Shown here: piece by piece, positions 2,237 through 38,010 of the stretch
Numbering within the stretch: position 1 is the stretch's first letter
Layout: every line of letters begins with the position of its first letter
Origin: an uncultured Candidatus Saccharibacteria bacterium
GTDB taxonomy: Bacteria; Patescibacteriota; Doudnabacteria; UBA920
Assembly (NCBI GenBank): GCA_964504715.1
Contig: CAZDEP010000003.1
Span: 10,111 to 74,110, forward strand
DNA length: 64,000 bases
Direction: 5' to 3'
The notes under the pieces: model-generated
Told to the model about the DNA's origin: nothing
The model's input: the letters and a program-made list of their open reading frames with translations, nothing else
Database searches by the model: none
Made by a program: the position numbers and the translations under genes

Positions 2237-2425
2237 TTAACTGTTCCTTTTGTGTATTCTATACATACCCCAACCATGCGACAATACCCCTATTATAATA
2301 AGCCAAAATTGCCAACCCCGTAAATAATCCGCTAGCCAAATACCTAAACCCAAGGCAATGCCGCAGGCTCCAAATAACGAAGCTTGCCATTCAATATATT
2401 TTGCTTTTGTGAGTTTTTCTTCCAT
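2237..2425 (-). CDS. small membrane protein (62 aa, two predicted TM segments)
   Basis: Hydrophobic ORF on the same strand as the metal cluster. Confidence 0.35.
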   Translation of the reverse strand: MEEKLTKAKYIEWQASLFGACGIALGLGIWLADYLRGWQFWLIIIGVLSHGWGMYRIHKRNS

Positions 2426-2565: not shown

Positions 2566-2823
2566 TTAATCCTTTACTGACCGGTTAAATACCCAAGCGA
2601 ATAGCCAGCCTGCAATATGGCTGTATATAGCCATCTGTATCAAGCCGCCTATGAAGCCGCCGAAGGTATAACTCCTGCCATCTATGCTTGCTACATGGAG
2701 AAGCGACTGCATTAACCGCGCAGCAAATTCGGGGAATAGATAAACAAATAGTGAACATACGGCATACAAAAGTGCCGCTATTCCAGTAATTCCCCAAGCA
2801 AACTTAACTTTATTGAGTTGCAT
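2566..2823 (-). CDS. small integral membrane protein (85 aa)
   Basis: Two to three hydrophobic helices. It lies immediately downstream of the copA-like gene on the same strand. Confidence 0.5.
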   Translation of the reverse strand: MQLNKVKFAWGITGIAALLYAVCSLFVYLFPEFAARLMQSLLHVASIDGRSYTFGGFIGGLIQMAIYSHIAGWLFAWVFNRSVKD

Positions 2824-2870: not shown

Positions 2871-5800
2871 TTATTGAACAAAATCACTGGTAATATAATG
2901 GAAGTTGTCTAGAGGCGTTTTTGTTTCAGGCAATACTCCAGCCACAACCACATCCTTTCCAAAGAAGTTAGTTAGGGTATCACCTGGCTTTTGAAATAAC
3001 TTCTCAGCTTCCATAACTTGAGCTTCTTTGCTGCCAATATAAACTGGCAAATACCGCTTTGTTCCAAACGTTACCGGAAATAACCCGTCCCGATTAATGC
3101 TGCTACTATAAACGGCAGGGATAGTATTTTGATCTATTCCATAGAATAGCTTTAACTCATCTTTTGCCTGAGCTGCTGATGCGCCAGAAACCGAAGCGAT
3201 TTGGGTTTCAGTTTTCATGATATGGGTATTATCCAAAAATGTTCCGGTCGGTTTTAAAATACCCACAATCTTCATGCTTGGTATGCCAAAGAAATTGGCC
3301 AGGGTATCGCCAGGCTTCTCAAACAGTTTTTCTTTTTTCATCATTTCCGCCTCATCGTAGCCGATGATCATTTCGTCTTTTCCTAAATTTCCAGATCCTT
3401 CTGCCAACGGCATATCAATATTCCCTTGGTTAGTTTGCAAGAAGAATTTTGGATTATTCTCGGCAAAGTTTACCCTCATGACAGACTGCTTTATCAGGTT
3501 CTGGCTCTTTTGCGTAATCTCAGGAGATGCCTTAACAACAGTCATGGCTTTGGTTGGTTCTGCCATGCGCGAGCTGAATTGGGCGAACTCAAAGAATACA
3601 AGGGAAAAGAATACGGCCATGGCCACCGGAGCCAATGCGGATATCCAGTTGCGTTTGGTCGGCTTAAAGAACCGCAAGGTCAGGGAATTTGTAACAACCG
3701 AAACAGAGCTTAAAGCCATAGCTAGCCCAGCTAGTTCTGGCTTCAAGACCAACCCCAAACCCATAAATACGCGAGCAGCAATTGGGATGCCTACGACATT
3801 GTAGAATAACGCAAAGAACATATTTTGTTTAATTTTGCTCATGGTTTCGCGGGAGAGCTGGATGGAATTGACCACATCATTCAAGTCGCTTCTCATAATT
3901 ACGATGCCGCCGGTTTCCATGGCAACGTCAGTGCCATTGCCCATGGCAATACCGAGGTTAGCCTGCGCCAGTGCTGGTGCGTCATTAATGCCATCGCCAA
4001 CCATGGCAACTTTCTTGCCATCCGCTTGCAGCTTTTTCACCTCGTTGGCTTTATCTTCCGGCAATACCTCTGCCAGCACATTGGTAATACTGACTTGGGA
4101 AGCAATGGCTTTGGCCGTGCGTTCGTTGTCGCCGGTGATCATGTATACCGTAATACCCATTTTCTGAAGCTTTTCAACTGCAGCTTTGGAAGTGGCTTTT
4201 ACAGTATCTGCCACCGCCACTACCCCAAGCAAATTCTCATTTGTGCCGAGCAACATGGCAGTCTTACCAGCTTCTTCAAGCCTTGATTGTTTTTTTCCGA
4301 CTTTCTCCGGGTTAATGCCTGCAACATCAGACATCATTTTGCGGTTACCAAAATAGTAGGTAATGCCATAAATATCGCCCTGCACTCCATGTCCGGGAAC
4401 GGCCTTGAAGTTTTTGACTTCCAGCAAATCCACATCTTCGTCCTGCGCGTGGCTATAAATAGCTTCCGCTAACGGATGCTCGGAAAGCTTTTCCAAGCTG
4501 GCAGCAATCTGCAAAACATCATCTTCGTCTTTGTCTGCAAACGCAAGAATATCAGTTACCTCCGGTTTGCCGTAAGTTAACGTTCCGGTTTTATCAAAGA
4601 TAATAGTATTGATCTTGCAAGCGGCCTCCAAAGGTTCGCCGCCTTTAACCAATATGCCATTTTCCGCACCCTTGCCAGTGCCTACCATAATAGCCGTAGG
4701 AGTAGCAAGTCCCAAAGCGCAAGGACAAGCGATGACGATAACGGCTGTAAACGCCATCAAGGCAAAAGCTAACGTTGCGCCTAGGAAGAAATACCAAACC
4801 AAGAACGTGATGACTGCAATCACAATAACCGCCGGAACAAACCAGGCGGAAATTTTGTCTGCAACGGCCTGTATGGGAGCTTTGGATCCTTGGGCTTCTT
4901 CAACTAAGCGGATAATTTGCGCCAGCACGGTTTCGCTGCCGACCTTAGTAACTTCAAACTCAAAGCTGCCGGTCTTGTTAAGGGTTCCACCTGCCACGTT
5001 ATCTCCAACCTTTTTTTCTACGGGCAAGCTTTCACCGGTCAACATAGATTCATCAACGGCGGAGGATCCTTTAATAATACGTCCGTCAATTGGAATTTTT
5101 TCTCCGGGGCGCACGATGACAATGTCTTTATGGACAACTTGATCGATAGCGATATCCTGCGTGCCGCCATTGCGAATCACTCGGGCTGTTTTTGCCTGAA
5201 GACCCATTAATTTCTTAATGGAATCTGAGGTCTTGCCTTTGGTCCTGACTTCCAACCACTTACCCAAGATTACGAAGGTAATCAGAAATGCCGCGGTTTC
5301 AAAATATAAATCTTGAATTTTTCCGCCATTTAACCCGAGTAGAGTTTTATTTGCGACAGCGAAAAACACAAAAGTCACTAAGCTGTAAAAGTAAGCGGTA
5401 GAAGTGCCAATGGCTATTAAGCTATCCATGTTAAAGGTTTTCATCCGCAAGGCTGACCACATGCCCTTATAGAATCCCTTGCCAATAATGAACTGGACAG
5501 GTGTGGCAAGGATAAGGGAAACAATGCCTACATAAGGCAAAAGCTGCGCTTTGCCCGGCATCCAGCCAAAGAAGTCAAAGAACATGAAGTAAAGCATTGG
5601 CGCGCTCAAGATTGCGCTAAACAAAAATTTCTTCCAGTATGATCCAATTTCTGCCTGCCTTTTCTTGGCGTCGAACTCCGTATCTTTTGCATCAACCTCT
5701 TCGGCCTTATAACCAACTTTCTTTACTGCCGCGACAAGGTCTGAAATTTGAGTTTGGGAGTTATCGAATACAATTACGGCTTTTTCTGCCGCAAAATTTA

Positions 5801-6482
5801 CGCTAGCTTGGGAAACGCCCGAAACTTTCTTTAAAGACTTTTCAATAATGCCAGCACAAGAAGCGCAGTGCATGCCTGAAAGAGAAAGGCTGATTTTTCT
5901 GCTCTTGCTATTGCTCTCAATTGCGGCCGGAACGGCTGTCATGGCGACTGCCTGTGCCTGAGGTGACTGAATCCGCGGCGAATTTTGTTGTTCACTGCTG
6001 ACCTGATCAAAGACATTAAAGAACTTCGCGCTTTTCACTAATTGCTCTAAAAACCCTTTGGCCTCTTCTTGTCCTTCAGGAACAGCAATGTCAGCAGTTT
6101 TGTGGCTCGTATAAGTGCCTTCAAAATATGGCTTGCCAGTTTCTGATTCCATCACTTTCCCGTGCGCTTCCAAGCGAGTGTCCAATTTTACTGAAAAAGG
6201 TATTCCTTTTGCCACCCTGGTTTTTACTTCTATACTTTCGTTGGCAACAGGTTCTGAAGCTGTTCCTCCGCTGATTTCAGCGACATACCCCGCCCGCTTA
6301 ACAGCATCTGCAATTTGTTCTGTGGTAACCAGTTCAGGGTTTGCCTTGACTGTGCCTTTGCCTTCGGCAGCAGATATCTGGATTTCTCCTACGCCTGGCA
6401 ATTCTCTAAGTTCCTCCGTTATAAGTGTTTCGCAAGAGCTGCAATGCATCCCTTGAATGTTTAAATGTAAAGTATTTTCCAT
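2871..6482 (-). CDS. copA: copper-translocating P1B-type ATPase with two N-terminal HMA domains (GMHCSSC, GMHCASC) and an unusual C-terminal extension: one extra TM helix plus a tandem duplicated ~90-aa domain
   Basis: Motifs TGES, CPC ([12 protein letters not shown]), DKTGTLT and [10 protein letters not shown]. Two MxCxxC metal-binding domains. The C-terminal repeats share AEKLF.KPGDTL.NFFG...LDN.H. Confidence 0.9.
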
Positions 6483-6502: not shown

Positions 6503-6709
6503 TTATGCTGCGTGCACTTTGTATTGAGTGCCAGCAAGCGCTTCTTGCAATTCGTTAATTGTAATTTCCCTGTCAGCCTCCACTTCTCCTTGAGCCTCAT
6601 TGCCACTTTGCTCTAACTTTACGTTCCTGACTCCGCTAATTTTACTAATCTTCATGCGCGACACTTTGCCGCATGCATCGCAATTTAAATTTGTTAATAA
6701 AAATTTCAT
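6503..6709 (-). CDS. copZ: CopZ-like heavy-metal-associated (HMA) domain metallochaperone
   Basis: 68 aa, beta-alpha-beta-beta-alpha-beta-sized, with the CxxC metal-binding motif (LNCDACGKV). It sits directly upstream of the copA-like gene. Confidence 0.7.
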   Translation of the reverse strand: MKFLLTNLNCDACGKVSRMKISKISGVRNVKLEQSGNEAQGEVEADREITINELQEALAGTQYKVHAA

Positions 6710-6723
6710 AGTGTAATAGTTAA

Positions 6724-8409
6724 TTATTCTACGTTTATAATCCCGCGCTGCACTCCCATGGCGCAGGTGATGGGATATTCTCCCTTGTCCTTGGCGGTGA
6801 AGTCCAAAGCCAGTGTTTTATTTTTTTCGAGCAGCTCCGGTTGGTTATACAAGCCTGGAATCATTATGGTGCTCATACATCCATAGCCTTCGTCTTTTAC
6901 ATCAACTTCTAACCGCGCGGCTTGCCCAACTTTTACTGTGAATGTATTTGGTTCAATGTCATTATCAGTTCTATAGACTGTTTTTAATATTTGTGTGCCA
7001 GTTGCAGGTTCAGCGGTTTTTGCTTCAACTGCCGGTTGTGCTTGCTGGGGAGTTGAAGCCGGGGTAGCCTGAGACTGGACGGGGTTTGTGTCCTCAATGA
7101 CATTAAACGATCCTCTATACATTCCCATTGAACACGTAAAGCTTACGGTGCCGGTTTTAGTAGGAGTGAATTCAATAATATTTTCCCCTGATTTTAGCGG
7201 TTGGCTAATTTTATAAGCAGACATTACTATATAGCTTGAACATGAGTATTGGCTGGTAGAATTGATTATCCATTTTACCGGCCGTCCTTTGACCACAGTA
7301 AATGACTTTGGGCTGTAACCGCTGTCGCTTTGGGTCATTCTTACTTCTTGCGCTGGTCCCGTTGCCTGCGCTGTATTTGCCGTTTTCGTGCCTGGCGTGA
7401 ATACAATCCTGCTGGCGTTGGAAATATTAAATATTCCCAACACAATAACTGCTATGCCAGCGCCCATAAAGAAGATGCGGGCTTTTTGGCCTTTGAATAC
7501 ACTGGACAATCCTCCGATCCCTAAAAGTCCAGGAGCGGTGCCTAAGGCAAACAGCATCATAATTAATGCTCCTTTGGTAAGGCTCCCGGTGCTTACCGCA
7601 TACAGCTGCATGGCTTGTGTAAAACCGCATGGCAAGAAGAACGTCATGGCTCCGCCAATAAACGCAGACTTGTGGCTATACTCCTTGTTCTCATTGCGGA
7701 TGCCTAATGCGCGGGATATGAACTTTGGAAGGGTTATGGTTTTGTCCCGCAATGCCGGAAATATTTCAATGAGCTTAAGCCCCAGGAAGATCATCACCCC
7801 GCCCACAATAATAGTCATGATTCCCAAGGTGGAAGCAGAAGGTCTGAAAGCAGATCCCAACAGGCCAATTGCCCCGCCAAAGAAGGCATATCCTGCAATT
7901 CTCCCGACGTTAAAGAATATGTGCGGACGGAACTTTTGCGCTGCCGTCGCTTCTGGGTGAAGTTCGCTATGACGAGCCGCCAAACCTAATACTAATCCGC
8001 CGATTAAAGCCATACAGGACGAAAATCCGGCAACTAGCCCTACTAGAACAACCACGCCCATACTGCCGCCGCCTGTGCTGATGTTCACATTGAACAGCCC
8101 GGTAGAACTTGCGATAAAATACAGGACTGCAAGAATGGAACCGGCAAGCAGCAAGTAAAAGTAATCTCGCGGGTTGCGCGATATCCAAGGCAGTTTCTCT
8201 TTTTGCCCGATTTCATAACCCGCAGCCTGCACAGCATCCCTTATACTTTGTTTGGAAGGCGTTGGTCCTTCAAAATGGACTTTCGCTTTTCCGTCTTTAT
8301 AGCTTACATTGACTGATTTGACTCCCTTAACTTCTTTAAGGTTGTCTTCAATGAGGATTTCGCACGATCTACAGTGCATCCCTCTAATTGGAACAATAAA
8401 TTTTCCCAT
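6724..8409 (-). CDS. HMA-domain fused TauE/SafE(DsbD_2)-like polytopic membrane protein with a C-terminal tandem pair of ~55-aa C-x-M-G-M (cupredoxin-like?) domains; putative metal permease
   Basis: N-terminal GMHCRSCE HMA domain and ~8 TM helices with an LPCGFTQAMQ motif. The C-terminus has the repeats FTCSMGMYRGSFNV and ITCAMGVQRGIINV. Confidence 0.7.
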   Translation of the reverse strand: MGKFIVPIRGMHCRSCEILIEDNLKEVKGVKSVNVSYKDGKAKVHFEGPTPSKQSIRDAVQAAGYEIGQKEKLPWISRNPRDYFYLLLAGSILAVLYFIASSTGLFNVNISTGGGSMGVVVLVGLVAGFSSCMALIGGLVLGLAARHSELHPEATAAQKFRPHIFFNVGRIAGYAFFGGAIGLLGSAFRPSASTLGIMTIIVGGVMIFLGLKLIEIFPALRDKTITLPKFISRALGIRNENKEYSHKSAFIGGAMTFFLPCGFTQAMQLYAVSTGSLTKGALIMMLFALGTAPGLLGIGGLSSVFKGQKARIFFMGAGIAVIVLGIFNISNASRIVFTPGTKTANTAQATGPAQEVRMTQSDSGYSPKSFTVVKGRPVKWIINSTSQYSCSSYIVMSAYKISQPLKSGENIIEFTPTKTGTVSFTCSMGMYRGSFNVIEDTNPVQSQATPASTPQQAQPAVEAKTAEPATGTQILKTVYRTDNDIEPNTFTVKVGQAARLEVDVKDEGYGCMSTIMIPGLYNQPELLEKNKTLALDFTAKDKGEYPITCAMGVQRGIINVE

Positions 8410-8428: not shown

Positions 8429-9490
8429 TTAGACCCCGCAACCACCACCGCCCTTAGGTGCAACCGGCTCTACTTGGCTTCTAATTTGTTGGTATCCTTG
8501 GGCGCTGGAAAACGCTGCTCCCAATACTTCCTGCGGGTTGACCTGTTTCCAGTCAACTCCTTGGCTTTTTTTATACTTGGCTATTGTCAGGTAAGTATCC
8601 GGGAACCAATAAGAATTTACTGTTAGAGCATACTTATACATGTCCTGTTCGTTTACCCCTTGGGAAGCCATGAGTTCCAGCAAGCCCAGCATTGCCATCC
8701 CATGGTTGCAATCAGGGAAGTGGGTGGAATTGCCGCAGCAAGGGCGGAAGATTCCCCGCGAGACTTTATCTACAATCGCTTGCTGCTCTGCTGTTAAAGT
8801 TATAAAGCGATGTTTTGAATAGTGCTCCATGGCAGTTCCGCTGGCCAATGTCCATCCTCCCGTTGAGGCGAACTTTCCGGCATCGCCGCCGTATTGCTTA
8901 TCCCACATTTCGCCTTTATCCAGGATCTCATTTTTCTGTCCTAGTCCGAATGCCCAGAGAATATTTAACAGGCCGGAAGAATTTTGAGCGGTAAATTTGA
9001 TTTTCCCATTATTGCTTTCTGTCAGCATCTTTTTCATATCCGCTGGCATTCCGCCTCTTTGGGCATATAAGGCCTCTATTTTTTGCTGGTCAATTACTCC
9101 TTCTTTGACCAATTGCTTGCCTAAGTCTCCCCATACAACCGGCAATTCAAGGCCAGCGCTAGGTAAAACTTTTTCTTCCATATCTTTATCGATCGGAGCG
9201 GCGGCTGGCGCAGTTGAAGTTTGGGCTAAGGTCTGGGTGGTAACCGCCGTCTGTTGCGCCGGTTTGACACCCAATACTTTATTAAGCCAAGGTTTGCGTT
9301 TTACCGTAACCTGAAACTCAAAGGTAGAGGTTATGATAAGGATCGCGATTGCGGCCATTCCGGCCATTTCCAGATAGGAAAAGTCTTCCATGCGGGCATA
9401 TGTTTTTTTCAGAAACATTTTTATCCCGCTTTTTTCATGATGGTGTTCAGTAATTTTTTGCTCTTCACCGGGAACATGATGGTTTTCCAT
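8429..9490 (-). CDS. membrane-anchored hypothetical protein with a His-rich N-terminus (HHVPGEEQKITEHHHE) and a Cys/His cluster CCGNSTHFPDCNHGM; putative metal-binding exoprotein
   Basis: 353 aa, a single TM segment after the His-rich tail, and a conserved-looking Cys/His cluster. No family recognised. Confidence 0.55.
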   Translation of the reverse strand: MENHHVPGEEQKITEHHHEKSGIKMFLKKTYARMEDFSYLEMAGMAAIAILIITSTFEFQVTVKRKPWLNKVLGVKPAQQTAVTTQTLAQTSTAPAAAPIDKDMEEKVLPSAGLELPVVWGDLGKQLVKEGVIDQQKIEALYAQRGGMPADMKKMLTESNNGKIKFTAQNSSGLLNILWAFGLGQKNEILDKGEMWDKQYGGDAGKFASTGGWTLASGTAMEHYSKHRFITLTAEQQAIVDKVSRGIFRPCCGNSTHFPDCNHGMAMLGLLELMASQGVNEQDMYKYALTVNSYWFPDTYLTIAKYKKSQGVDWKQVNPQEVLGAAFSSAQGYQQIRSQVEPVAPKGGGGCGV

Positions 9491-10049: not shown

Positions 10050-10838
10050 TTACATTTTAAGGATTAATAGTCCCAAGAGGATCATAATGATCCCGCCAAT
10101 CCATCGCATTGCATTCAGGTGGTTTCGTTTCCAGTCTTGCATCTTAGTAAGCACGGTTTGTTCGCTTGCTACAAACAATACAGCCACCAATGGAGCTACG
10201 AATAAAATGTTATACCATATTAGATATCCCATTCCTCGGAATTTTGTCTGGGCATCGTGGAGAAGCCCTAGCACCATCAAGTATGGTCCGCCGGTGCAGG
10301 GAAACTCGCATAATCCCACAAGCGCGCCAAGCAGGAACACAGCGGGAATGGAAGTCTTTTCCATCAGGTCGGCAATTTTACCATGGACAGCATGAGGAAT
10401 TTGAAGCTTTACCGGAAACTTAGGAAAGAACTGGTTGATAATATTTAGAATGCCCATGCCAATAAGCAGATAGGCTCCCAGCACGCCCATAAAGTGGGGA
10501 GTGTTAAATAAGTGCAAAGCTCCTAAAATGCCAAGGCCAATAGCCAGATAGGCTATAAAGATTCCAAATATGTAAGCCCCGCCAATTTCTAACATTTTTC
10601 TCCTGCTAAAGGTTCCTAAGCTAAATAAGAAAGCTATAGTAAGCAGCAGTATGGAGAAAGCACAGGGGTTTATGCTGTCGATTAACGCCGCGAGGGAAAC
10701 CAATGGAAACAGTTTTGTGCCTCCACCGGATATGTTCCAGATTACTTGAGTGGCGGAAGAACTGGATTTGAGGAACAAGAGAATGCCGAAAGCCAATGCA
10801 ACCCCGCCTAACACAAAGAAAAATCTTTTATAGTTCAT
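10050..10838 (-). CDS. ccdA: CcdA/DsbD-family thiol:disulfide interchange membrane protein (cytochrome c biogenesis CcdA-like)
   Basis: Polytopic protein with conserved Cys-containing motifs (INPCAFSILL and LCEFPCTGGPYL), typical of CcdA/DsbD TM domains. Confidence 0.8.
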   Translation of the reverse strand: MNYKRFFFVLGGVALAFGILLFLKSSSSATQVIWNISGGGTKLFPLVSLAALIDSINPCAFSILLLTIAFLFSLGTFSRRKMLEIGGAYIFGIFIAYLAIGLGILGALHLFNTPHFMGVLGAYLLIGMGILNIINQFFPKFPVKLQIPHAVHGKIADLMEKTSIPAVFLLGALVGLCEFPCTGGPYLMVLGLLHDAQTKFRGMGYLIWYNILFVAPLVAVLFVASEQTVLTKMQDWKRNHLNAMRWIGGIIMILLGLLILKM

Positions 10839-10842
10839 AGGG

Positions 10843-11382
10843 TTATGGAGTTACCTGGGCTTTAAAGGCCAGGTTTAATTTGCCGCCGTCCGTGGTTTCA
10901 ACATAGATATCGCGGGCAATGGATCCGACGCCGGCCGGACCATGGGCTGCCGGGTCATATACAGCTTCTATGGTCGCCTCGACTCCGGGCGCTAGCGTTT
11001 CGGTGATAGTAGGGATTGCGCCATGCCCGGGCATGCCGAATGGCCCCGCTCTGCGATCGCCATTGTAGAGTGTGGCTTTAGTGCACATGCACGAAGTATA
11101 TATTTTGCTGATTGTAATCGTGTCAGAGGTTGGGTTTTTTATTTTGAAGCTTTTCTTAACCACACCTTTGGCCATTGAAATGGTTCCGAAGTCGTAAGCT
11201 TTTTCTAAAGCCTCAATAGGACTGGCTTTAGAAGATCCGGTCTGCGTTGAGGCAGCGGGAGAGGAAGAAGAGCTGGTAGAAAATACAAGCGAGCCTCCAA
11301 GCACTACAAAGAATAAGGCGATGCCAGCCACAACCCAATTCGCTTTCTTCTGAGTTTCTTTTATTTGATAACGATGTGACAT
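10843..11382 (-). CDS. DUF1573-domain protein, membrane anchored
   Basis: N-terminal TM segment, then YDFGTI....FxIKNxG...L.I..I.TSCMCT, characteristic of DUF1573 (often found with thioredoxin/CcdA systems). Confidence 0.65.
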   Translation of the reverse strand: MSHRYQIKETQKKANWVVAGIALFFVVLGGSLVFSTSSSSSPAASTQTGSSKASPIEALEKAYDFGTISMAKGVVKKSFKIKNPTSDTITISKIYTSCMCTKATLYNGDRRAGPFGMPGHGAIPTITETLAPGVEATIEAVYDPAAHGPAGVGSIARDIYVETTDGGKLNLAFKAQVTP

Positions 11383-12479: not shown

Positions 12480-14663
12480 TTATGATAGGCTCTTGCGTCT
12501 AAGCATAACGGCATTTAATGCAACAATAACTGTGCTAAGCGACATAAATACTGCCGCTAAAGCAGGTTGCATTAATATTCCTTTTGAAGCCAGAACCCCA
12601 GCCGCCAGCGGCAATGCAACAACATTGTATCCAGTCGCCCAAAACAGGTTTTGAATCATCTTGGAGTAAGTCAGTTTTGAAAGTTTTATGACTTTAGGAA
12701 TATCGCGCGGGTCATTTTTGACTAAAATAATTCCAGCCGACTCAATTGCTACATTTGTTCCAGCACCAATGGCAATACCTAAGTCTGCCTGCGTCAGAGC
12801 CGGTGCGTCATTAATCCCGTCGCCGACCATGGCAACTTTTAAACCTTTGTCTTGCAATAATTTAACCTTACTAGCTTTTTGCTCAGGCAAAACCTTGGCA
12901 AAATATTCATCAATCTTCAGTTCTCCCGCAACCCAGGCAGCTACATCTTGAGAATCACCAGTAATCATCCCAACTCGGACACCCATGGCTTTTAACGACT
13001 TTATGGCTTCTCTTGATTCCTCACGAATAACATCTGCCAAGGCGATACTGCCAACCAGTTTTTTATCTACAATGACAAAGATAATAGTTTTACCTTGTTT
13101 TTCCGCTCGGCTGTTTTGTTCGACCAGCTGGCTATCCATCCCTGCCCCTGATTCTTGCAGAAGCGTGGCGCTACCAACAAAAACTTCTTTGCCGTCTACT
13201 ATTGCTTTTGTTCCTTTGCCTGGAATCCGCTGAAAGTCCAAAGCGGGACTAAACTGCAATTTCCTTTTTTCGACTTCCTGCATAATAGCTTTGGCAACCG
13301 GATGTTCGGAGTTAGCGTTGACTGAAGCGGCTAACTTAAGCACAAGTTCGGGACTGTTACCGGAAGAACCTATGAGCTTATCAATTCCATATTCGCCTTT
13401 AGTCAAGGTGCCGGTTTTATCAAATAATACAACATCAATATTCCTGGCGGCTTCTAAAGCTAAACGCTGCTTAACCAGCAGGCCATTCTTTGCCGCCATG
13501 TTTGTGGAAATAGAAGCGACCAAAGGAATGGCCAAACCTAAAGCGTGCGGACAGGCGACCACTAAAACCGCCACTGTTCTTTCCAGAGCAAAGTTAACCC
13601 CGGAACTATTTAATATCCAAATAATAAAAGTTAATATTCCGGACACCAGAGCGATTATGGTTAGATAAAAAGCGGCGCGATCTGAAAGCATTTGTAGCTT
13701 GGATTTGGAGCTTTGCGCTTCCGCGACTAATCGCATAACGCCGGAAAGAAAGGTTTTTTCTCCGATCTTGTCTACTTTTATCTTCAAACTACCATCACCG
13801 TTAATCGTACCGGCAATGGCTTCACTCCCAATGTCTTTACTAACCGGTTTAGACTCGCCGGAAACCATAGACTCGTTAACCTCCGATCTTCCTTCAGCAA
13901 TAGTCCCATCGGCTGGAATTTTTCCGCCCGGTTTAACTAAAATAACATCACCTTCTTTTAACTGCTCCAGCGGGATGATTTCGGTTTTGTTACCCCTTAC
14001 AACTTCCGCCGTGTCGGGTAAAAGCTTGGCCAGTTCCTTAAGCGCGCCTTGGGCGCCCTGGACGGCACGCATTTCCATCCAATGACCCAAAAGCATAATG
14101 GTAATTAGCGTGGTTAATTCCCAAAACAGGGTTTCGCCATTTAACAGTAATTTGGAATACAGACTATACACGTAAGCGACCGTAATCGCCATGCCAATCA
14201 AGGTCATCATACCCGGCTGTTTGGCTTTTAGTTCCCTGTAAGCTCCTTGCAAAAATACCCAACCGCCGTGAAAGAAGACAACTGAACCCAAAATTAAAGG
14301 AATATAACCTGACCCGGGGAAAACCGGAGCTGTAAACCCCAGCAGTTGGGTTACCATTTCAGAATACAAAACCACAAGCACGCTTAAAACAAGGCTCACC
14401 CAAAACTTATTTTTAAACACATTAACATTATGGCCTTCGTGCTTATTTACTCCTTCGTTGTGACCATTGTGTCCCATATGTTCTTCTGTTTCTGGGCCTT
14501 TTCTTTTTTCAGGCAATAATTGCATGCCGCAGCCCGGGCATTTGCCTGGCTGATTTTGCCGCACTTGCGGGTGCATTGGACAGGTATAAACAATATCCGA
14601 CTTCGGTTCTTCGATGTGATGCGTATGATTATGATGTTGGTGATTATTGTTATGCATAGTCAT
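12480..14663 (-). CDS. copB: CopB-type (P1B-3-like) copper P-type ATPase with a His-rich N-terminus and an N-terminal CPMHP-type heavy-metal-binding domain
   Basis: N-terminus HNNNHQHHNHTHH, then YTCPMHPQV...GKCPGCGM. Core motifs TGES-like, CPH (VVACPHALGLAIP), DKTGTLT and [10 protein letters not shown]. Confidence 0.85.
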   Translation of the reverse strand: MTMHNNNHQHHNHTHHIEEPKSDIVYTCPMHPQVRQNQPGKCPGCGMQLLPEKRKGPETEEHMGHNGHNEGVNKHEGHNVNVFKNKFWVSLVLSVLVVLYSEMVTQLLGFTAPVFPGSGYIPLILGSVVFFHGGWVFLQGAYRELKAKQPGMMTLIGMAITVAYVYSLYSKLLLNGETLFWELTTLITIMLLGHWMEMRAVQGAQGALKELAKLLPDTAEVVRGNKTEIIPLEQLKEGDVILVKPGGKIPADGTIAEGRSEVNESMVSGESKPVSKDIGSEAIAGTINGDGSLKIKVDKIGEKTFLSGVMRLVAEAQSSKSKLQMLSDRAAFYLTIIALVSGILTFIIWILNSSGVNFALERTVAVLVVACPHALGLAIPLVASISTNMAAKNGLLVKQRLALEAARNIDVVLFDKTGTLTKGEYGIDKLIGSSGNSPELVLKLAASVNANSEHPVAKAIMQEVEKRKLQFSPALDFQRIPGKGTKAIVDGKEVFVGSATLLQESGAGMDSQLVEQNSRAEKQGKTIIFVIVDKKLVGSIALADVIREESREAIKSLKAMGVRVGMITGDSQDVAAWVAGELKIDEYFAKVLPEQKASKVKLLQDKGLKVAMVGDGINDAPALTQADLGIAIGAGTNVAIESAGIILVKNDPRDIPKVIKLSKLTYSKMIQNLFWATGYNVVALPLAAGVLASKGILMQPALAAVFMSLSTVIVALNAVMLRRKSLS

Positions 14664-14669
14664 AAAGTT

Positions 14670-15446
14670 TTAATATCCTTTAAATTCTTCAGTTATAATA
14701 TTATTTTTACTAATACTTAATCCATTGAGTAATTTTCTCATAGCCGTTACCATGACTGGGGGTCCTGCCAAATAATAAATCAGGGTCTGAAAGTTGTCTA
14801 AATATCTCTCCAACATTGTTCGATCTATGTATCCGGTTTCTCCTTGCCATGTTTCCTTTGATTCGTGGAGTTCAGTCATGGTTGGAATTAATTTGAAATT
14901 TGGATTCTGCTTCGCCAGCTCTTCCAATTCTTTCAAAAAAGGAGCATCCTCCGGCTGCTTGTTGGAGTAGAAGAGAAACAGCTGATGGGGCAATTTTCTT
15001 TCTGCAACATCTTTAATTATTGAAAATACCGGGGTGATTCCTATGCCGCCAATCAGGAAAACTGCTGGTTTTGATTCATCATTATGCAGAGTAAATGACC
15101 CATGGATGTGTTCAACTATAACCTTACTTTCCGGGTTCATGCTCCCTAAAACTCTCTTAAACGCGGTATTTCGCATCCGTGTGGCAAAGAGCAGTTCTTT
15201 TTCCGCGGGTGAATTTGCCAGTGAAAAATGGCGGCTACTGCCTTCGTCGTCGGTTTCGGGTGGATTAATAAGCTTCATATTTAAATGCTGGCCTGCTCTA
15301 AAAGAAAATCCTTGCGGCTTTTCAAAAAAGAAAGCCATGGTGCCCTCCGCGACCTGTTTTTTTCCCTTTAGCGCCACTTCAAACACTCCGCCGCTGGCTT
15401 CGGGGTGGTGGTGTGTTTGATTATGATGGTGATGATCGTGATTCAT
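14670..15446 (-). CDS. ferredoxin-NADP+ reductase-like FAD/NAD(P)-binding oxidoreductase with a His-rich N-terminal tail
   Basis: The RHFS (RxYS-type FAD-binding) and GGIGITP (NAD(P)-binding) motifs of the FNR superfamily. N-terminus MNHDHHHHNQTHHH. Its stop lies 6 nt from the copB-like start. Confidence 0.75.
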   Translation of the reverse strand: MNHDHHHHNQTHHHPEASGGVFEVALKGKKQVAEGTMAFFFEKPQGFSFRAGQHLNMKLINPPETDDEGSSRHFSLANSPAEKELLFATRMRNTAFKRVLGSMNPESKVIVEHIHGSFTLHNDESKPAVFLIGGIGITPVFSIIKDVAERKLPHQLFLFYSNKQPEDAPFLKELEELAKQNPNFKLIPTMTELHESKETWQGETGYIDRTMLERYLDNFQTLIYYLAGPPVMVTAMRKLLNGLSISKNNIITEEFKGY

Positions 15447-32652: not shown

Positions 32653-35600
32653 TTATTTTAGATTTCGCTTGGGTTCAAACTGCAGAATAAATGACAACGG
32701 TACTTCTTGAATCTGTTGAAAGTTAAATTCGGCTTTCATAAATTCAGCTGGGGTGGAAAAGGCATAGCTAGTGCCGTCACCGAATAAGGCGTAAACTGTC
32801 CTGTCATGTGCGGTTTTGACAACAGCCATAAGCCCTTTATAGTCGGGCAGTCCTTCCTTCAAAGTTAGGCTGAAAGTAGCACCCAACACAGCCGGGGTAT
32901 TTTCCAGGCTGCCGGCGGAAATGGCATAAGTGCTGGGTGCGAACTGTGCCTGCAGAGCAGCATAATCTTTTCCTCGGGCCACTGAAGAAATTCTCACCTC
33001 ATCAAAAATTCCGGCAGCAGGATACTGAGCTGAACCAATCCTAAGCACTTCCTGTCCCCTAACCATGGCCCTGCCGTCCAAGCGGTTGCGTAGAACCTCT
33101 TTGCCGTTTATATAAAGCACGTCAGTGCTGTCCGCGGAATGGCTAAACATAATATGATACCAGTTTCCGGCTTTCATTTCAGAATAGGCAGACGTGGTTA
33201 GCCGACCGTAACTGGGATAATAGCCGCCGGCCTTCAAATAACCGCGACTATAGCTAATGGCAATACCCGAGGAATCGTTCGGTGAAGAAAGCGAAAAAAT
33301 ATTCTTTAAATCGCTTGATGAATTCAAATCCTGGGAAGGACTGAACCAAAATTCCAAAGTTAGGTTGGAATCCTGATCACCAAACCCCGTGCTGCTGAGC
33401 AAGTCTGCGCCGGAACTTATTTCCCTTGCGTCAGCCGCCATGCCCGCCGCGGCTGCGGCATTTCCGGCTAAATTCCTACCCGACTTGGCATCTGAATCCG
33501 AACTTAAATGATATACTGCAACATAATCAGAAGCCCAAACAGAGGCGGAATTTTGCGGAGTCGCGGCGTTTGCGTTTCCCATATAAAGGTAAAATTCCAG
33601 GTTGCCTTTGGCTATGACAGGCTTTATCCAGGCGACCAGCTCGCCGGTTGCCGGATTGTATTTTTCTAACTCATAAGGGATTTGGGTTAAGCCGTCCGAT
33701 TCCGTGAAAAGTAAATCCGCGCCGGAATTGGATGCGACTTTGCCTCCATACGCCAGGGTCCGGAAATTTGCATTAGTCATTTTCACCAACACCGGCATGC
33801 CTGATAATTCGCCGGCCAAACCTGTGGAAATTGCTAACTTTTGCCTGGTAGGCCAATCGCGTGATACCCAATTGCCCACCGAAGGAGTCGGCGTAGGATT
33901 TGGAGTAGGTGTGGGAGTGGGAGTGGGAGTGGGGGTTGGTGTCGGCGTCGGGGCAGGAGTTGGATTTGGCGTAGGAGTGGGTGTAGGGGCTGGAACCGGA
34001 CTTGGTGTAGGTGTAGGTGTGGGTGTTGGCACAGGTGTCGGTACAGGAGAGGGTGTGGGCACAGGCGCAGGCAGATTGGGATTTACGGGCACTGCGGCGG
34101 AACTGTTCGTAACAAATATTTGGTCAATTTTTGAATTAACTTCCCTGCCTTTGAATAAAATTTTATGGGTGCCCGCCGTTAAATTAAGTATTCGAGGATT
34201 TAACGTTAAAGGTGCTGAACCGTTACGGCCATTGAGTTTTGTCCATTGCCAGTTAGCAGACCATGTACCTTCGGCATAGTCGTACACATCTTCCGAACCA
34301 TTATCCACGGAAACAAAGAATGAATCATTTGCCGAATCTTCTGCTTTAACTTTGCCCCATACATAGTAAGTTCCAGCGGTAGCGACATTTACAGTAAATT
34401 CTGCACTGCCTTGGTTGGCTGTTGGAAATTCTAAGTAAGAGCCTGCCGATGCGCCGGAGTCCGCCTTAACTACCGGACCCCCGGAATATTGAGACTGTTC
34501 AGCCTCTATATAAACAGAGATTATTTCGTTCGGAGTTGGGGTGGGGGTTGGGGTGGGCGCGGGAGTTGGGGCTGGAGGGGCTAGGTTAAAAGATTTGGGA
34601 CTGCCGGAGATCTGGACGTTATTGGCAGAATCAGACAAGTCTATGGCCCACATCCATACCTGGTGGCTTTTCCCATCTTTGTATTGTGCCGGTATGGCAA
34701 AATTAAACGCATGGTTTCCGACATCTGAACGGTAATCCCCTGCTTTAACCAAAATAGGAGAAGCTCCGCTAGTGCCCGCATTTTTGTCTATATATGCATG
34801 AACTTCAATAGCCTGGCTTGTATTGTCAGGATCTGCCGCCCATCCATACACAGTGCCATCGGCTTTAACCCCGTCAAAAGATCCGTTTGGTTTTTGGTTA
34901 ACGGGTTGAGGCACGGGGGTGGGCGCAGGCGTTGGTACAGGAGTCGGTGTCGGCACAGGGCTTGGCGCAGGCGTTGGCAAACCAGCCAAAGAACCCAAAA
35001 CGCCAAAGGGATTGGCAGAAACCTGGGTCGGTAAAACCACAAAACTGCCAAACTCCGCGCTGGTATGGGTAATGGGTTTAGCCGACAAACGGGGGTTTGC
35101 CGGATTGGAAACCAACGAGGCTACGGCGCTCAAATTCATAGGCACGTTAACCGGTTGGCCGTTATAAGTACCGGTCATTATAGCCGGACCGCTAAAATTT
35201 TGCGCGTCTTTAATCTGGTACGCGTCGCCAATTTTTAAACCGGCTTGGGAAAGGTCTACGGAAACCGAGTCCTGCTTGTCCCAGTTGAAGATTATAATAT
35301 TCGCCTGGCCCGGTTGGTATTTATTCGGCCGATAAAACACTTTTAACCCGGTTGGCCGCGTGGATGCATACGTATTGTTGGAATAACTGGAAGGCGAAAA
35401 TTCAGCCAAACCGCCGTAAAAGGTATTTCCCGACATGTCTTTAATGTTTACACAGTCCAGGTTTAAAGCCGTAGGCGCAACAAAGTAGTTGTTCTTTATA
35501 ATCGGGCCTTCGCACCCGTTATAGTGTATATCCAAGCCTTTGCCCGAACCACCCGCTGACATGTCGTAATAATTAAAGTTGTTAATGTATACAGGATTCA

Positions 35601-38010
35601 AGCCGCGGTAATTTAAGTCATTGTTCTGGCCGTATAAGAAACCCGCCTTAGGTTCGCCGGATGGCACGCCGCTATTTAAGGCAAGGTTACCCTCGTAATA
35701 TAAGTAGTCAACTAGGTAGTCGGGATTGGCTGGATTTTCACTGCCCTGGCCATAAGCATGGTAGCCATATTGCATGCCGTTTAAAACCATGTTGTCTATG
35801 AAATACTGATATTCACCGTTGGACTTAGTCCGCGAATTTTGTACATAAATTCCGTGGCCATGTCCGCGGGTACCCGGGTCCCATACGCCAACATTATAAA
35901 TAATGTTACCGTAAAATTCGCTGCCACCGGAAAGCTGCCAGGTATTTATGCCGGTGAAAATATCGTGGATGGTATTGTTAATAAACTTTATGTGGTGGCC
36001 AAAATTGTATATATCACCGCTCATATAGTTCCCATTCCCAATCGCATTGGAGTTGGTAAATTCCAAATCCCAAAACCATACATAACCCGAACCTTCATAA
36101 ATTTCCAGTCCCCTGCGCGCGTCATTTAGGTTATGGTCAAATATGGCTTTTTCTCCCGGGTAAGACCTAAAAATAATTGGCTGGGTTTTAGTGCCATTTA
36201 CATAACTCGTATATGAACCGGTATACCTGCCGCCGCGCAGCCAAACTACATCGCCCGGCTTTACGGATTTTTGGTTTGCAAATACGCTTTCCAAATTCCA
36301 AGGGTTGTTTATGCTGCCATCCCCTGCCGAACTGCCGTTGGGCGAGACATACCAGTACGTACCAGAAAGCTGCACTTTTTCTGCGCTAGGTGCAGGGGTC
36401 GGGGTTGGAGTAGGCGTCGGGGTTGGAACTGGCGCAGGAGTGGGAGTAGGGGTCGGGGTTGGAGTAGGCGTCGGCGTCGGCGCTGGAGCCGGGGTTGGCA
36501 CGGGGGCTGGAACCACAATTCCTGAAACGGGCAACACAACATACACATTAAATTCTTTGTCCGTGTGGGTAGGGGCAACAATAGTACCCACTGGGGTAGA
36601 CACGTTGCTGGGCACACCAACGGATTTATATACCGCCGTCATGGTAGTGGGTACGCTTACCTGACCGCCGGTATAGGTGCCACTAGCTATAGCACCACCA
36701 AAGAAATTTTGCGCGTCCCGGACTTCATATTTTGTGCCCGCAGGCATAAACGAAGAAAAATCCAGGTCAACGGTATTTTTGTTGTCCCAATTAAAGACAG
36801 TAATATAAGCGCGGCCATTTTCGTATTTGTTTGCGCGCACGGAAACTTTGGTGCCGGTGGGCCGGACGCTGCCGGTTGAATTATTGTATACCTGGGTGTT
36901 GTTTGGAAATGCGGACAAGTCAGACTTCATTTGGTAGACATTTCCGGGGTATAAGTCTTCAAACACCACCGGACCGACAAACACATTTCGGTTGAGTTTA
37001 AAATTCCTGCCCGTTTGGTTCTGCTGGACAAACTTGCTGGTGCCAACGACATAGTTGTCTTCCACGGTACCGTTTTGGCATTTGCCGTAAATTGAATAGC
37101 CAAAATTTAAACTCTGAGTTGTAAAACTGGAAAGCGGATAATATATGCTGTTGTTTTTTACTTGGTTGCCGTCGCAGGTTATGCCGCCGCCAACCAGCAA
37201 ATTTCTTTCAAAACCGCCTTGCATCACGCCGCTGTTAAAATATGTGTTGCCGTCAAACGTAATGTTATTGAGCCACGCGCCGTCGCCGGAACCGTACGCT
37301 TGGCTGCCGTGGTTAAACCCGTTAAAGAAAATATTATCGGCAATAGTTTTTGTTCCGCTTTGGTTTTGAATATACAAACCGTGGCCGTGTCCCCTGTCTG
37401 ATGCCAGGCCGCCGTTGTTAAAAACCAAGTTGCCATAAAATTCGGACGCGTCAGGCGTCGTGCCGGTAGACCAAAAACCGTTGCCGCCGGTATCATAAAT
37501 GGCAAGGTTTATATATTTATTTTTCGGGCCGTACGCGGCCAAACCATAGGGCCTAAGATCGTTAGCAAACGAACCCGGTTGCGTGGTCCAGCGCTGGCTC
37601 CAGGAGTTTGTAATTTCAAAACCCCAGTACCAGGTGTTGGAGCCATACACGTTTAAACTGCCGCCGGCATCTATGCCGGTTGCAGCTCGGTCTAAAATAA
37701 CCCGTTCACCCGGATACGCGCGCACAACAATGGGCGCCGTATCTGACCCTTTTAAATTTGAATCAAAGCGGCCAACATACGTGCCGCCCCTTAACCAAAT
37801 AGTATCACCGGGCTTGACGGCAGTAGGGTGGTTTAAAGCCGTCTTTAAGTCCCAAGGACTGTTAATGCTGCCGCTGCCCGATGGGCTGCCGCTCGTGGAA
37901 ACGTACCAATCACTTAAAGCTTTTGCCTGCTCTGCGAACGGGGGAAAAACGAACGAAGCGCTAACTAACACAAGAGCGCCCAAAAACGCAAAAATTTTAT
38001 TTTTATTCAT
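32653..38010 (-). CDS. giant (1785 aa) secreted surface protein: two right-handed beta-helix (pectin-lyase-fold) modules, several Pro-Thr linker tracts, CBM-like beta-sandwich domains and a C-terminal concanavalin A-like/LamG domain
   Basis: Signal peptide. Duplicated N-terminal module ([12 protein letters not shown]...[11 protein letters not shown] / [12 protein letters not shown]...[11 protein letters not shown]). PTPTPTPAP linkers. C-terminal LEFWFSPS...WYHIMFSH...LYINGKEV, LamG-like. Confidence 0.85.
33885..34080 (-). repeat. low-complexity coding repeat (GGNGTN)n encoding a Pro/Thr/Val/Ala linker
   Basis: ggagtgggagtgggagtggg... on the plus strand translates to PTPTPTP on the minus strand. 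Similar tracts occur at ~34530-34580, 34905-34990 and 36385-36500. Confidence 0.7.

What the first reader, a model, noticed from the sequence alone, without database searches (positions are those of the whole stretch)
2871..3790. CopA-like ATPase carries an extra C-terminal TM helix plus a tandem duplicated ~90-aa extracytoplasmic domain
After the canonical end of the P1B core (...[14 protein letters not shown]) the ORF continues ~300 aa. It has one more hydrophobic helix ([23 protein letters not shown]) and then two repeats sharing AEKLF.KPGDTL.NFFG....G.L......LDN.H. With the normal cytoplasmic C-terminus of CopA, an extra TM would place these repeats outside the cell. Such an extracellular tandem domain fused to a Cu pump is not a described feature. 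It could be a metal acceptor/hand-off module or a partner-binding domain.
Basis: seen in the sequence. Interest (0 to 1): 0.6.

Follow-up and report, generated by a model that had tools for sequence, protein, structure and literature searches.

The report
Copper pump with external tandem domain
A copper-exporting pump from an uncultured ultra-small bacterium carries a ninth membrane helix and, outside the cell, two copies of a small uncharacterised domain. In other microbes the same domain is a separate gene always next to the copper pump, so it is probably an unstudied outside helper of copper export.

Summary
ORF 2871-6482 (-) encodes a 1203-aa CopA-type Cu(I) pump. After its eight-helix core ends at aa 946 it continues for 257 aa, not ~300: a ninth TM helix, a linker, and two homologous ~95-aa repeats (profile-profile E 9e-31).

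It is not a frame-fusion artefact. The identical protein occurs on 3 contigs, and the same in-frame fusion occurs in 26 other species-level genomes, all apparently Patescibacteria.

The module defines a small unnamed family (207 clusters at 50% identity). Most members are stand-alone, membrane-anchored ~260-aa proteins. In archaea and one deltaproteobacterium they lie within 411 bp of a CopA gene. Fused or adjacent, all 37 loci examined link it to CopA, usually alongside an HMA-DsbD_2 protein and a CupA-like cupredoxin.

Each repeat models confidently (pLDDT 90) and resembles only periplasmic domains of MacB/LolC/YbbP-type ABC transporters, most likely the Sabre subdomain. It lacks their Porter subdomain, permease and ATPase.

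Four lines of evidence place it outside the cell. Conserved E-A-x-M-M and T...D-x-x-H motifs and near-total absence of Cys suggest extracytoplasmic Cu(I) capture or hand-off. That function is inferred, not shown. No description was found in the literature searched.

The parts
2871..6482 (-). Whole gene: 1203-aa CopA-type P1B-1 ATPase with C-terminal extension (stop codon 2871-2873)
   Evidence: TIGR01511 scores 628 bits (cut-off 397). Motifs DKTGT630, CPC586, YN(x)4P 894 and M(x)2SS 922 are present.
3645..6482 (-). Canonical CopA part (aa 1-946): two HMA domains (about 6279-6467 and 5706-5888), eight TM helices, A/P/N domains
3570..3650 (-). Ninth TM helix (aa 945-971, [27 protein letters not shown]), preceded by the positively charged connector KPTKRNW
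   Evidence: Hydropathy peak 2.15. AF2 helix at extension residues 4-25. Sequence verified.
3486..3569 (-). Juxtamembrane linker (aa 972-999). Its first part is disordered in the model and it contains Met residues (RMAEPTKAM).
   Evidence: pLDDT below 50 for extension residues 13-38. A Met just after the TM helix occurs in only about half of members.
3207..3485 (-). Repeat 1 (aa 1000-1092), a Sabre-like alpha/beta domain
   Evidence: AF2 pLDDT 89.7, pTM 0.82. The top 22 Foldseek hits are all MacB/LolC/LolE/YbbP periplasmic domains, TMq 0.39-0.58. Pfam MacB_PCD E 9.9e-6, 26.4 bits.
3330..3353 (-). Repeat 1 helix motif E1044-A-E-M1047-M1048-K-K-E1051
   Evidence: Conservation over 95 members: E 88/95, M 77/94, M 90/94, E 79/94
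3222..3233 (-). Repeat 1 motif D1084-N-T-H1087 (preceded by T1079-G-T)
   Evidence: D 94/95, H 86/95, T 92/95
2883..3188 (-). Repeat 2 (aa 1099-1200), a paralogue of repeat 1
   Evidence: hhalign repeat 1 vs repeat 2 E 8.9e-31. Modelled with pLDDT 85-94. Absent in 5 single-repeat fusions, which keep the repeat-1 type.
3012..3026 (-). Repeat 2 helix motif E1153-A-Q-V-M1157
   Evidence: E 88/95, A 90/95, M 89/95. Position 1156 is M in 62/95 members and V here.
2898..2909 (-). Repeat 2 motif D1192-N-F-H1195 (family consensus D-M-M-H)
   Evidence: D 95/95, H 82/95. The two middle positions are M in 55 and 49 of 95 members.
6503..6709 (-). Upstream neighbour: 68-aa CopZ-like HMA protein
   Evidence: Present in many related loci.
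6724..8409 (-). Upstream neighbour: 561-aa HMA + DsbD_2 membrane domain + two CupA-like cupredoxin domains (C...CxMxM). It accompanies the module in most related loci.

Best explanation
The gene encodes a genuine nine-helix variant of the Cu(I)-exporting P1B-1 ATPase CopA. The ninth helix carries the chain back across the membrane. It tethers two Sabre-like domains, related to the periplasmic domain of MacB-type ABC transporters, on the outer face next to the pump's exit.

The module belongs to a dedicated CopA accessory family. It is fused to the pump in Patescibacteria. In archaea and one deltaproteobacterium it is a separate membrane-anchored gene beside the pump.

Most likely mechanism (inferred, not shown): each repeat presents a Cys-free, Met/His/carboxylate site. 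The site is made of the helix face E-A-x-M-M-x-x-E plus T...D-x-x-H. It captures Cu(I) as it leaves the pump. It then either holds the metal away from the membrane or passes it to the co-encoded extracytoplasmic CupA-like cupredoxin domains. Those domains have Cys ligands, which the attached DsbD_2 membrane domain could keep reduced.

Shown here: the architecture, the outside topology (by prediction and homology), the fold relationship, and the obligate genomic linkage to CopA. Inferred: metal binding and hand-off.
For: Architecture and reality of the fusion.

CopA identity.

Outside location:
- Eight core TM helices plus one more.
- Positive-inside bias of stand-alone anchors, 28 against 4.
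- No Cys in the soluble part of 93 of 95 members.
- The only fold relatives are extracytoplasmic domains.
- The co-encoded cupredoxins carry an N-terminal anchor or signal-like segment.

Functional linkage, of the split/fused 'Rosetta-stone' type: in all 37 loci examined the module is fused to CopA (26 of the 32 species genomes) or lies within 411 bp of a CopA gene. In L001-L004 the two genes overlap by 4 bp. About 30 of 161 family representatives carry CopA sequence and none carries any other recognised domain. CupA-like cupredoxin and HMA-DsbD_2 genes accompany the module in most loci.

Candidate ligands: E, M, M, T, D and H are conserved at 81-100% in both repeats across CPR and archaeal members that share only ~30-45% identity. 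Repeat 2 has the consensus D-M-M-H. E1044, M1047 and E1051 fall on one face of the helix opposite its hydrophobic face (helical-wheel reasoning secondary structure).

Precedents: extracytoplasmic Cu(I) proteins use Met/His rather than Cys, for example CusF with His plus two Met (review PMC7558416). CopL is a surface protein with tandem domains and His/Met clusters, encoded with a P1B ATPase (PMC5947656).
Against: I could not read model coordinates, so I do not know whether the conserved Met, His, Asp and Glu residues cluster in space.

M1048 and M1157 lie near the hydrophobic side of the helix and could be structural. His is replaced by Tyr or others in 9-13 of 95 members. In this very protein one Met of repeat 2 is Val, and repeat 2 has D-N-F-H rather than D-M-M-H.

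Sabre-type domains in MacB and LolC are known as protein-docking surfaces, not metal sites. Sequence similarity to MacB_PCD is below Pfam's threshold (26.4 against 27 bits) and was not seen for other members. Fold-search E-values are marginal (6e-3 at best).

Topology is predicted, not measured.
Confidence: 0.5

Rival explanations
1. Docking or scaffold module without its own metal site. The tandem Sabre-like domain is a protein-protein adaptor. It holds an extracytoplasmic partner at the pump's exit, most obviously the CupA-like cupredoxin domains of the neighbouring HMA-DsbD_2 protein. The conserved E/M/D/H surface would be an interface rather than a ligand set.
For: Sabre and periplasmic domains of the structural relatives act as docking surfaces. 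[quoted passage not shown] The cupredoxin and HMA-DsbD_2 genes co-occur with the module in most loci. The cupredoxin already has a complete CupA-type Cu(I) ligand set, C...CxMxM.
Against: No fusion of the module with a cupredoxin was found among 161 representatives. A few loci with full flanks show no cupredoxin at E<1e-5 (L019, L028, L032). Strict conservation specifically of Met and His in a Cys-free domain is more typical of Cu(I) sites than of interfaces.
Confidence: 0.25
2. Regulatory or gating module. The tethered domain senses extracytoplasmic copper, or caps the exit funnel, and feeds back through TM9 on pump turnover. Alternatively it simply stabilises the pump in these envelopes. This would be loosely analogous to mechanotransmission through the stalk helices of MacB-type transporters.
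For: The module is covalently joined to M6 by only 7 residues, so TM9 must pack against the core. The fold relatives belong to transporters that couple TM helix movement to their periplasmic domains.
Against: [quoted passage not shown] It is not evident here: each repeat is one contiguous Sabre-like unit. Most family members are separate proteins with their own anchor, so covalent coupling is not required. About 28 residues, the first half disordered in the model, separate TM9 from the first repeat.
Confidence: 0.13
3. The feature is an artefact or is misplaced. Either it is a frameshift or assembly fusion of CopA with a downstream gene, or the hydrophobic segment does not span the membrane and the repeats are a cytoplasmic regulatory tail.
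For: Terminal extensions of P-type ATPases are usually cytoplasmic regulatory elements (PMC11970713). In archaea the module is indeed a separate gene.
Against: The identical ORF occurs on 3 contigs, including a Logan assembly of a public sequencing run. There are 26 in-frame fusions in different species at 37-78% identity. Only 7 residues separate M6 from the next helix, leaving no room for a gene start. Stand-alone members have N-in/C-out anchors, the domain is Cys-free, and its fold relatives are extracytoplasmic.
Confidence: 0.02

Closest known systems
CopA, P1B-1 Cu(I)/Ag(I)-exporting P-type ATPase (e.g. Legionella, Archaeoglobus and E. coli CopA)
   Same: Residues 1-946 are a complete CopA: two N-terminal CxxC HMA domains, eight TM helices, CPC / YN(x)4P / M(x)2SS metal-site motifs, DKTGT, TGE and GDGxND.
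   Different: It has a ninth TM helix and a 230-aa extracytoplasmic tandem domain after M6. Described P1B ATPases have eight helices and cytoplasmic termini. There is also an unassigned ~130-aa insert between the two HMA domains.
Sabre subdomain of the periplasmic domain of Type VII (MacB-type) ABC transporters: MacB, LolC/LolE, YbbP, HrtB
   Same: These are the only significant fold relatives. For a single repeat the top 22 PDB hits are all from this group, TMq 0.39-0.58, probability up to 1.00. Pfam MacB_PCD gives E 1e-5 over profile positions 65-201, which map to the Sabre region of E. coli MacB. Both follow a TM helix and lie outside the membrane.
   Different: There is no Porter subdomain, no FtsX four-helix permease and no ABC ATPase. 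The unit is duplicated in tandem, attached to a P-type pump or to a lone anchor helix. It scores below the Pfam threshold, with clade-specific E-A-x-M-M and D-x-x-H motifs.
CopL (S. aureus copXL/copBL; B. subtilis YdhK), a surface lipoprotein with tandem DUF1541 domains
   Same: Closest functional analogue. It is an extracytoplasmic, membrane-attached protein with two tandem small domains carrying conserved His and Met. It is encoded with a P1B ATPase in a monoderm and contributes to copper resistance (PMC5947656).
   Different: It is an unrelated family: there is no DUF1541 hit. CopL has a lipid anchor rather than a TM helix, and the cited paper does not describe it fused to the pump. Copper binding by the present module is untested.
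CusF as periplasmic acceptor of Cu(I) from CopA in E. coli
   Same: Concept of direct hand-off from the pump's exit to an extracytoplasmic Met/His site. The CusF site is His plus two Met (review PMC7558416). The CopA-to-CusF transfer itself is from my own knowledge of Padilla-Benavides et al. 2014.
   Different: CusF is a soluble OB-fold protein of diderms that feeds CusCBA. It did not appear in the fold searches. The present module is membrane-tethered and occurs mostly in lineages without an outer membrane.
CupA (S. pneumoniae), a membrane-anchored cupredoxin-like Cu(I) chaperone
   Same: The cassette partner, not the module itself, has Cupredoxin_1 domains with the CupA ligand pattern C...CxMxM, and it is encoded beside CopA.
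   Different: CupA is described as handing Cu(I) to CopA for efflux, that is, upstream of export. Here the cupredoxin domains follow about 7 TM helices or an N-in anchor, so they are predicted to be outside.

Membership tests
P1B-1 Cu(I) ATPase (CopA) | P-type catalytic core: DKTGT phosphorylation motif, TGE, GDGxND, E1-E2_ATPase and HAD domains | tested here: met
   DKTGT 630, TGE 482, GDGIND 829. PF00122 E 8e-63 and PF00702 E 4.5e-38.
P1B-1 Cu(I) ATPase (CopA) | Cu(I) transmembrane site signature: CPC in M4, YN(x)4P in M5, M(x)2SS in M6 | tested here: met
   CPC 586, YNVVGIP 894, MALSS 922. TIGR01511 628 bits against cut-off 397.
P1B-1 Cu(I) ATPase (CopA) | Eight TM helices with both termini cytoplasmic | tested here: not met
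   Eight core helices plus a ninth at aa 944-971. The C-terminus is predicted to be outside. This is the feature that makes it a variant.
Type VII ABC transporter periplasmic domain (Pfam MacB_PCD) | Score at or above the Pfam gathering threshold for PF12704 | tested here: not met
   26.4 bits against 27, E 9.9e-6. No hit for P0013, P0030, P0033 or P0103 at E<=0.01.
Type VII ABC transporter periplasmic domain (Pfam MacB_PCD) | Sabre-type alpha/beta fold | tested here: met
   The single-repeat model gives TMq 0.50-0.58 to YbbP, MacB and LolC domains, with the top 22 hits exclusively this group. The assignment to Sabre rests on profile-coordinate mapping, not on residue-level superposition.
Type VII ABC transporter periplasmic domain (Pfam MacB_PCD) | Porter subdomain (two beta-alpha-beta motifs flanking the Sabre) connected to two stalk helices | tested here: inconclusive
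   Each repeat is one contiguous unit and only one TM helix precedes the module. No Porter-like element is apparent, but I could not inspect coordinates.
Type VII ABC transporter periplasmic domain (Pfam MacB_PCD) | Domain inserted between TM1 and TM2 of an FtsX-type four-helix permease, working with an ABC ATPase | tested here: not met
   The protein ends after repeat 2. No FtsX or ABC_tran domain occurs in the protein or in the neighbours examined. Stand-alone members are ~260 aa with one anchor.
CopL / DUF1541 extracellular copper-binding lipoproteins | Tandem DUF1541 domains | tested here: not met
   No DUF1541 hit at E<=1
CopL / DUF1541 extracellular copper-binding lipoproteins | Surface-exposed, encoded with a P1B ATPase, conserved His/Met clusters | tested here: met
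   Outside topology is predicted. All 37 loci are linked to CopA. E/M/M/D/H are conserved. This is a functional resemblance only.
CopL / DUF1541 extracellular copper-binding lipoproteins | Binds Cu(I) and contributes to copper resistance | not testable with these tools
   Needs biochemistry and genetics
CusF-type periplasmic Cu(I) chaperone | OB-fold barrel with a His-Met-Met(-Trp) site | tested here: not met
   No CusF or OB-fold chaperone among the PDB fold hits, and no Pfam or NCBIfam hit

The most novel reading that the evidence does not exclude
Patescibacteria and several archaea, which lack an outer membrane, possess a previously unrecognised extracytoplasmic Cu(I) relay built around CopA. 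A Sabre-like Met/His module, fused to the pump through a ninth helix or encoded beside it, takes Cu(I) directly from the exit site. It passes the metal to externally displayed CupA-like cupredoxin domains, whose thiol ligands are kept reduced by a fused DsbD_2 electron conduit. This would be a monoderm counterpart of the CopA-CusF-CusCBA route. It would also be the first case of a MacB-type periplasmic subdomain recruited by a P-type ATPase.
Probability: 0.3. Interest if true: 0.8.

Novelty: new variant of a known kind. Interest (0 to 1): 0.62.

Why it matters
How Cu(I) leaves a P1B pump, and what receives it on the outer side, is poorly understood. This is especially so in organisms without a periplasm.

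A natural fusion that tethers a candidate acceptor to the pump at fixed 1:1 stoichiometry gives a direct handle on that step, for structure determination and for transfer assays.

It also defines an unnamed protein family (about 200 clusters at 50% identity) with an unambiguous functional context. It shows that a subdomain so far reported only in MacB-type ABC transporters has been reused by a different class of primary pump. And it adds a copper-handling cassette to the sparse functional knowledge of Patescibacteria and DPANN/methanogen envelopes.

Tried and rejected
- **No solved relative by sequence.** A profile search of the family against PDB sequences gave nothing meaningful; the best hit was E 0.36 to a ribosomal protein.
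- **hhalign against MacB.** Comparing the repeat profiles with the single E. coli MacB periplasmic sequence gave no significant alignment. The Sabre assignment therefore rests on Pfam coordinate mapping plus fold hits.
- **Second-tier fold hits.** Retropepsin/Ddi1 and p97-N barrels had probability <=0.21 and were rejected as the relevant fold.
- **NCBIfam.** No hit for the extension.
- **Extra C-terminal regions.** The tails of P0114 and P0086 gave no Pfam hit.
- **Cupredoxin fusions.** I looked for fusions of the module with cupredoxin or DsbD_2 domains that would prove a partnership; none exists among 161 representatives.
- **Juxtamembrane Met motif.** I considered it as a first Cu acceptor, but Met is present in only about half of members.
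- **Literature.** Seven full-text searches found no description of a nine-helix CopA or of this module. The library excludes most subscription journals, so absence is not proof.
- **Model coordinates.** I could not read them, so spatial clustering of the conserved residues was not tested.
Full report
**1. What is in the sequence**

On the minus strand, 2871-6482 is one uninterrupted ORF of 1203 aa.

Residues 1-946 are a complete copper pump.
- Pfam finds two HMA domains, E1-E2_ATPase and the HAD hydrolase domain.
- NCBIfam's copper-translocating P-type ATPase model TIGR01511 scores 628 bits against a cut-off of 397.
- The P1B-1 signature is present: CPC at 586, YN(x)4P at 894, M(x)2SS at 922, with DKTGT at 630.
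- Hydropathy shows the eight helices expected of this class (MA, MB, M1-M6). A review states that P1B ATPases usually have eight (PMC7558416).

Seven residues after M6 comes a strongly hydrophobic 23-27-residue segment with a Kyte-Doolittle peak of 2.15. About 28 linker residues follow, and then two similar stretches.

The similarity between the two stretches is far above chance.
- Local score is 132, against 26 +/- 4.6 for shuffles.
- Profile-profile comparison across 95 homologues gives E 8.9e-31 over 81 columns.
- Global identity in this protein is 40%.

**2. Not an artefact**

The identical 1203-aa protein is recorded on three contigs, one of them in a Logan assembly of a public sequencing run (SRR12487046), with the same neighbours.

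A scan of one genome per prokaryotic species found 32 loci encoding the module. In 26 of them it follows the CopA core in the same frame without a stop, at 37-78% identity in the extension and 67-94% in the core.

A full HMMER scan of 1.84 billion cluster representatives found further full-length fusions of 954-1125 aa.

With only seven residues between M6 and the next helix, there is no room for a separate gene start.

**3. A family tied to CopA**

The profile search found 207 representatives at E<=1e-3, and 112 at E<=1e-30. Most are ~250-280-aa proteins with an N-terminal anchor helix followed by the two repeats. About 30 of the 161 sequences retrieved carry CopA sequence. Sources give no name other than 'hypothetical protein'.

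The genomic context is consistent across very different genomes.
- In a 64% GC archaeal-type contig set (L001-L004), the stand-alone gene overlaps the stop of a 725-aa CopA by 4 bp. It is followed by a cupredoxin gene.
- In a 35% GC contig (L005), it lies between a cupredoxin gene and a CopA gene.
- In all 37 loci examined, the module is fused to CopA or within 411 bp of one.

The fused form is confined to Patescibacteria (Doudna-, Woese-, Levy-, Falkow-, Sacchari-, Gracili-, Peribacteria and Microgenomates). The split form occurs in Methanoregulaceae, Methanosarcinales, Woesearchaeota, unclassified archaea and one 'delta proteobacterium'.

Five fusions carry a single repeat, always of the repeat-1 type. 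Repeat-specific profiles score their own repeat about twice as high in every locus printed. This fits a duplication older than these lineages.

Most loci also encode an HMA-DsbD_2 membrane protein and one or two Cupredoxin_1 domains. A split gene in some lineages and a fused one in others, with conserved neighbours, is strong evidence that the module works with this pump.

**4. Where it sits**

Four independent lines place it outside the cytoplasm.
- Eight core helices plus one, with a KPTKRNW connector on the cytoplasmic side.
- Stand-alone members have more Lys and Arg before the anchor than after it in 28 cases against 4.
- 93 of 95 members have no cysteine at all in the soluble part; overall Cys content is 0.02%.
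- Its only structural relatives are domains that are always extracytoplasmic (section 5).

One archaeal member also has a long Asn/Thr/Gln-rich tail after the repeats. The topology is nevertheless predicted, not measured.

**5. What the repeat is**

AlphaFold2 with the 14-sequence alignment gave a confident model of the extension (pLDDT 80.9, pTM 0.71). It shows a TM helix, a disordered stretch, and two similar alpha/beta units. Repeat 1 alone gave pLDDT 89.7 and pTM 0.82.

Foldseek against the PDB returned, for the whole extension, about 30 top hits. All are periplasmic domains of Type VII ABC transporters: YbbP, MacB, LolC, LolE, HrtB and YtrF. For the single repeat the top 22 hits are from the same group, with TMq 0.39-0.58 and probability up to 1.00. 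E-values are marginal (6e-3 at best), but the hits are exclusive. They also agree with a sub-threshold Pfam MacB_PCD match (E 9.9e-6, 26.4 against 27 bits) covering profile positions 65-201.

E. coli MacB residues 272-491 span the same profile. The Sabre subdomain is the contiguous stretch 347-465, flanked by the two halves of the Porter subdomain (PMC5985334). Each repeat therefore most likely corresponds to a Sabre subdomain. This rests on coordinate mapping, not on superposition.

The Porter subdomain, the FtsX permease and the ABC ATPase that define those transporters are absent. The module shares a fold with them but is not a member of that transporter family. The same review notes that the role of the Sabre is unclear and may be adapted to specific tasks.

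**6. How it probably works**

Across 95 two-repeat members that share only about 30-45% identity, each repeat keeps the same small set of polar or soft-ligand residues.

| Position in this protein | Repeat | Conservation |
|---|---|---|
| E1044 | 1 | 88/95 |
| M1047 | 1 | 77/94 |
| M1048 | 1 | 90/94 |
| E1051 | 1 | 79/94 |
| T1079 | 1 | 92/95 |
| D1084 | 1 | 94/95 |
| H1087 | 1 | 86/95 |
| E1153 | 2 | 88/95 |
| M1157 | 2 | 89/95 |
| T1187 | 2 | 86/94 |
| D1192 | 2 | 95/95 |
| H1195 | 2 | 82/95 |

The repeat-2 consensus around the last two positions is D-M-M-H. On a helical wheel, E1044, M1047 and E1051 face away from the hydrophobic side of the helix.

Met and His ligands without Cys are the hallmark of extracytoplasmic Cu(I) sites such as CusF.

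My best explanation is that the module captures Cu(I) at the pump's exit. It then acts as a local sink or passes the metal to the co-encoded cupredoxin domains. Those domains carry the CupA ligand pattern C...CxMxM (CupA ligands from PMC5646241). They are predicted to be outside as well. The fused DsbD_2 domain could keep their thiols reduced.

I put about 0.5 on a direct metal-handling role. The rivals are:
- a metal-free docking role for a partner, about 0.25, in line with what Sabre domains do in MacB and LolC;
- a regulatory or stabilising role, about 0.13;
- artefact or cytoplasmic tail, about 0.02.

The weak points are these. I could not read model coordinates to see whether the residues cluster. 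M1048 and M1157 may be structural. His is not invariant. This protein's repeat 2 has V-M and D-N-F-H rather than the Met-richer consensus.

**7. Comparison with what is known, and novelty**

The pump part is an ordinary CopA. The nearest functional precedent is CopL of S. aureus, a surface lipoprotein with two tandem DUF1541 domains bearing His/Met clusters. It is encoded with a P1B ATPase and needed for full copper resistance (PMC5947656). It is an unrelated family: there is no DUF1541 hit. The cited paper does not describe it fused to the pump.

The CopA-to-CusF hand-off in E. coli (my own knowledge) is the conceptual parallel in diderms.

I found no report of a nine-helix P1B ATPase with an extracytoplasmic C-terminal domain, nor of this family, in the searchable literature. 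Pfam and NCBIfam have no model for it.

I rate it a new variant of a known kind: a new architecture of a well-known pump, plus an unnamed accessory family, with a plausible but untested mechanism. Interest is 0.62.

Noticed in passing
window 6724-8409 (-): 561-aa protein with an N-terminal HMA domain, a DsbD_2 membrane domain (with SSC and LPCG motifs) and two Cupredoxin_1 domains carrying CupA-like C...CxMxM ligands (TCSMGM, TCAMGV). Hydropathy suggests about 7 TM helices, which would put the cupredoxins outside. The protein accompanies the CopA module in most related loci.
   Followed up: partly
window 5889-6278 (-), CopA aa 72-198: A ~130-aa insert between the two HMA domains of CopA has no Pfam match. 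The same spacing between the HMA hits is seen in the Patescibacteria homologues.
   Followed up: no
window 12480-14663 (-): A second P1B-type ATPase (727 aa) has an N-terminal HMBD (PF19335) instead of HMA. Nearby are a DsbD_TM/SfLAP-like membrane protein (10050-10838), a DUF1573 protein (10843-11382) and an NAD-binding oxidoreductase (14670-15446). The first ~17 kb look like a metal/redox island.
   Followed up: partly
window 8429-9490 (-): 353-aa protein without any Pfam hit. It has a His-rich N-terminus (MENHH...EHHHEK), a Cys/His cluster (CCGNSTHFPDCNHGMA) and a C-terminal GGGGCGV. It may be another metal protein. It was not found in the related loci.
   Followed up: partly
window 2566-2823 (-) and 2237-2425 (-): A DUF5676 two-TM protein and a 62-aa membrane protein lie directly downstream of the pump. 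They recur downstream of the fused pump in some relatives (L006; L007, L008, L013).
   Followed up: partly
L001 2595-3611 and L005 3-515: In the archaeal-type loci the HMA-DsbD_2 protein is replaced by an HMA protein with a very Met/Gly-rich membrane region (CMTGMMTGMTFGMAGG...). It has no Pfam assignment.
   Followed up: no
proteins P0048 and P0094: These representatives show Trp wherever Gly is expected (for example MVWDWINDSPAL). They are probably Gracilibacteria-type sequences, with UGA coding Gly, translated with a code that reads UGA as Trp.
   Followed up: no
loci L008, L013, L016, L022, L023, L025, L029, L030, L033: MAGs labelled 'uncultured Gammaproteobacteria' carry the Patescibacteria-type fused pump and cassette at 35-49% GC. 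The taxonomic labels look wrong.
   Followed up: no
protein P0114: One fusion continues for ~265 aa beyond the two repeats with a further domain that has no Pfam match. P0086 instead ends in a long Asn/Thr/Gln-rich tail.
   Followed up: partly
window 32653-38010, 50182-54444, 54673-58173 (-): Three very large ORFs (1785, 1420 and 1166 aa) lie elsewhere in the window. They were not examined.
   Followed up: no
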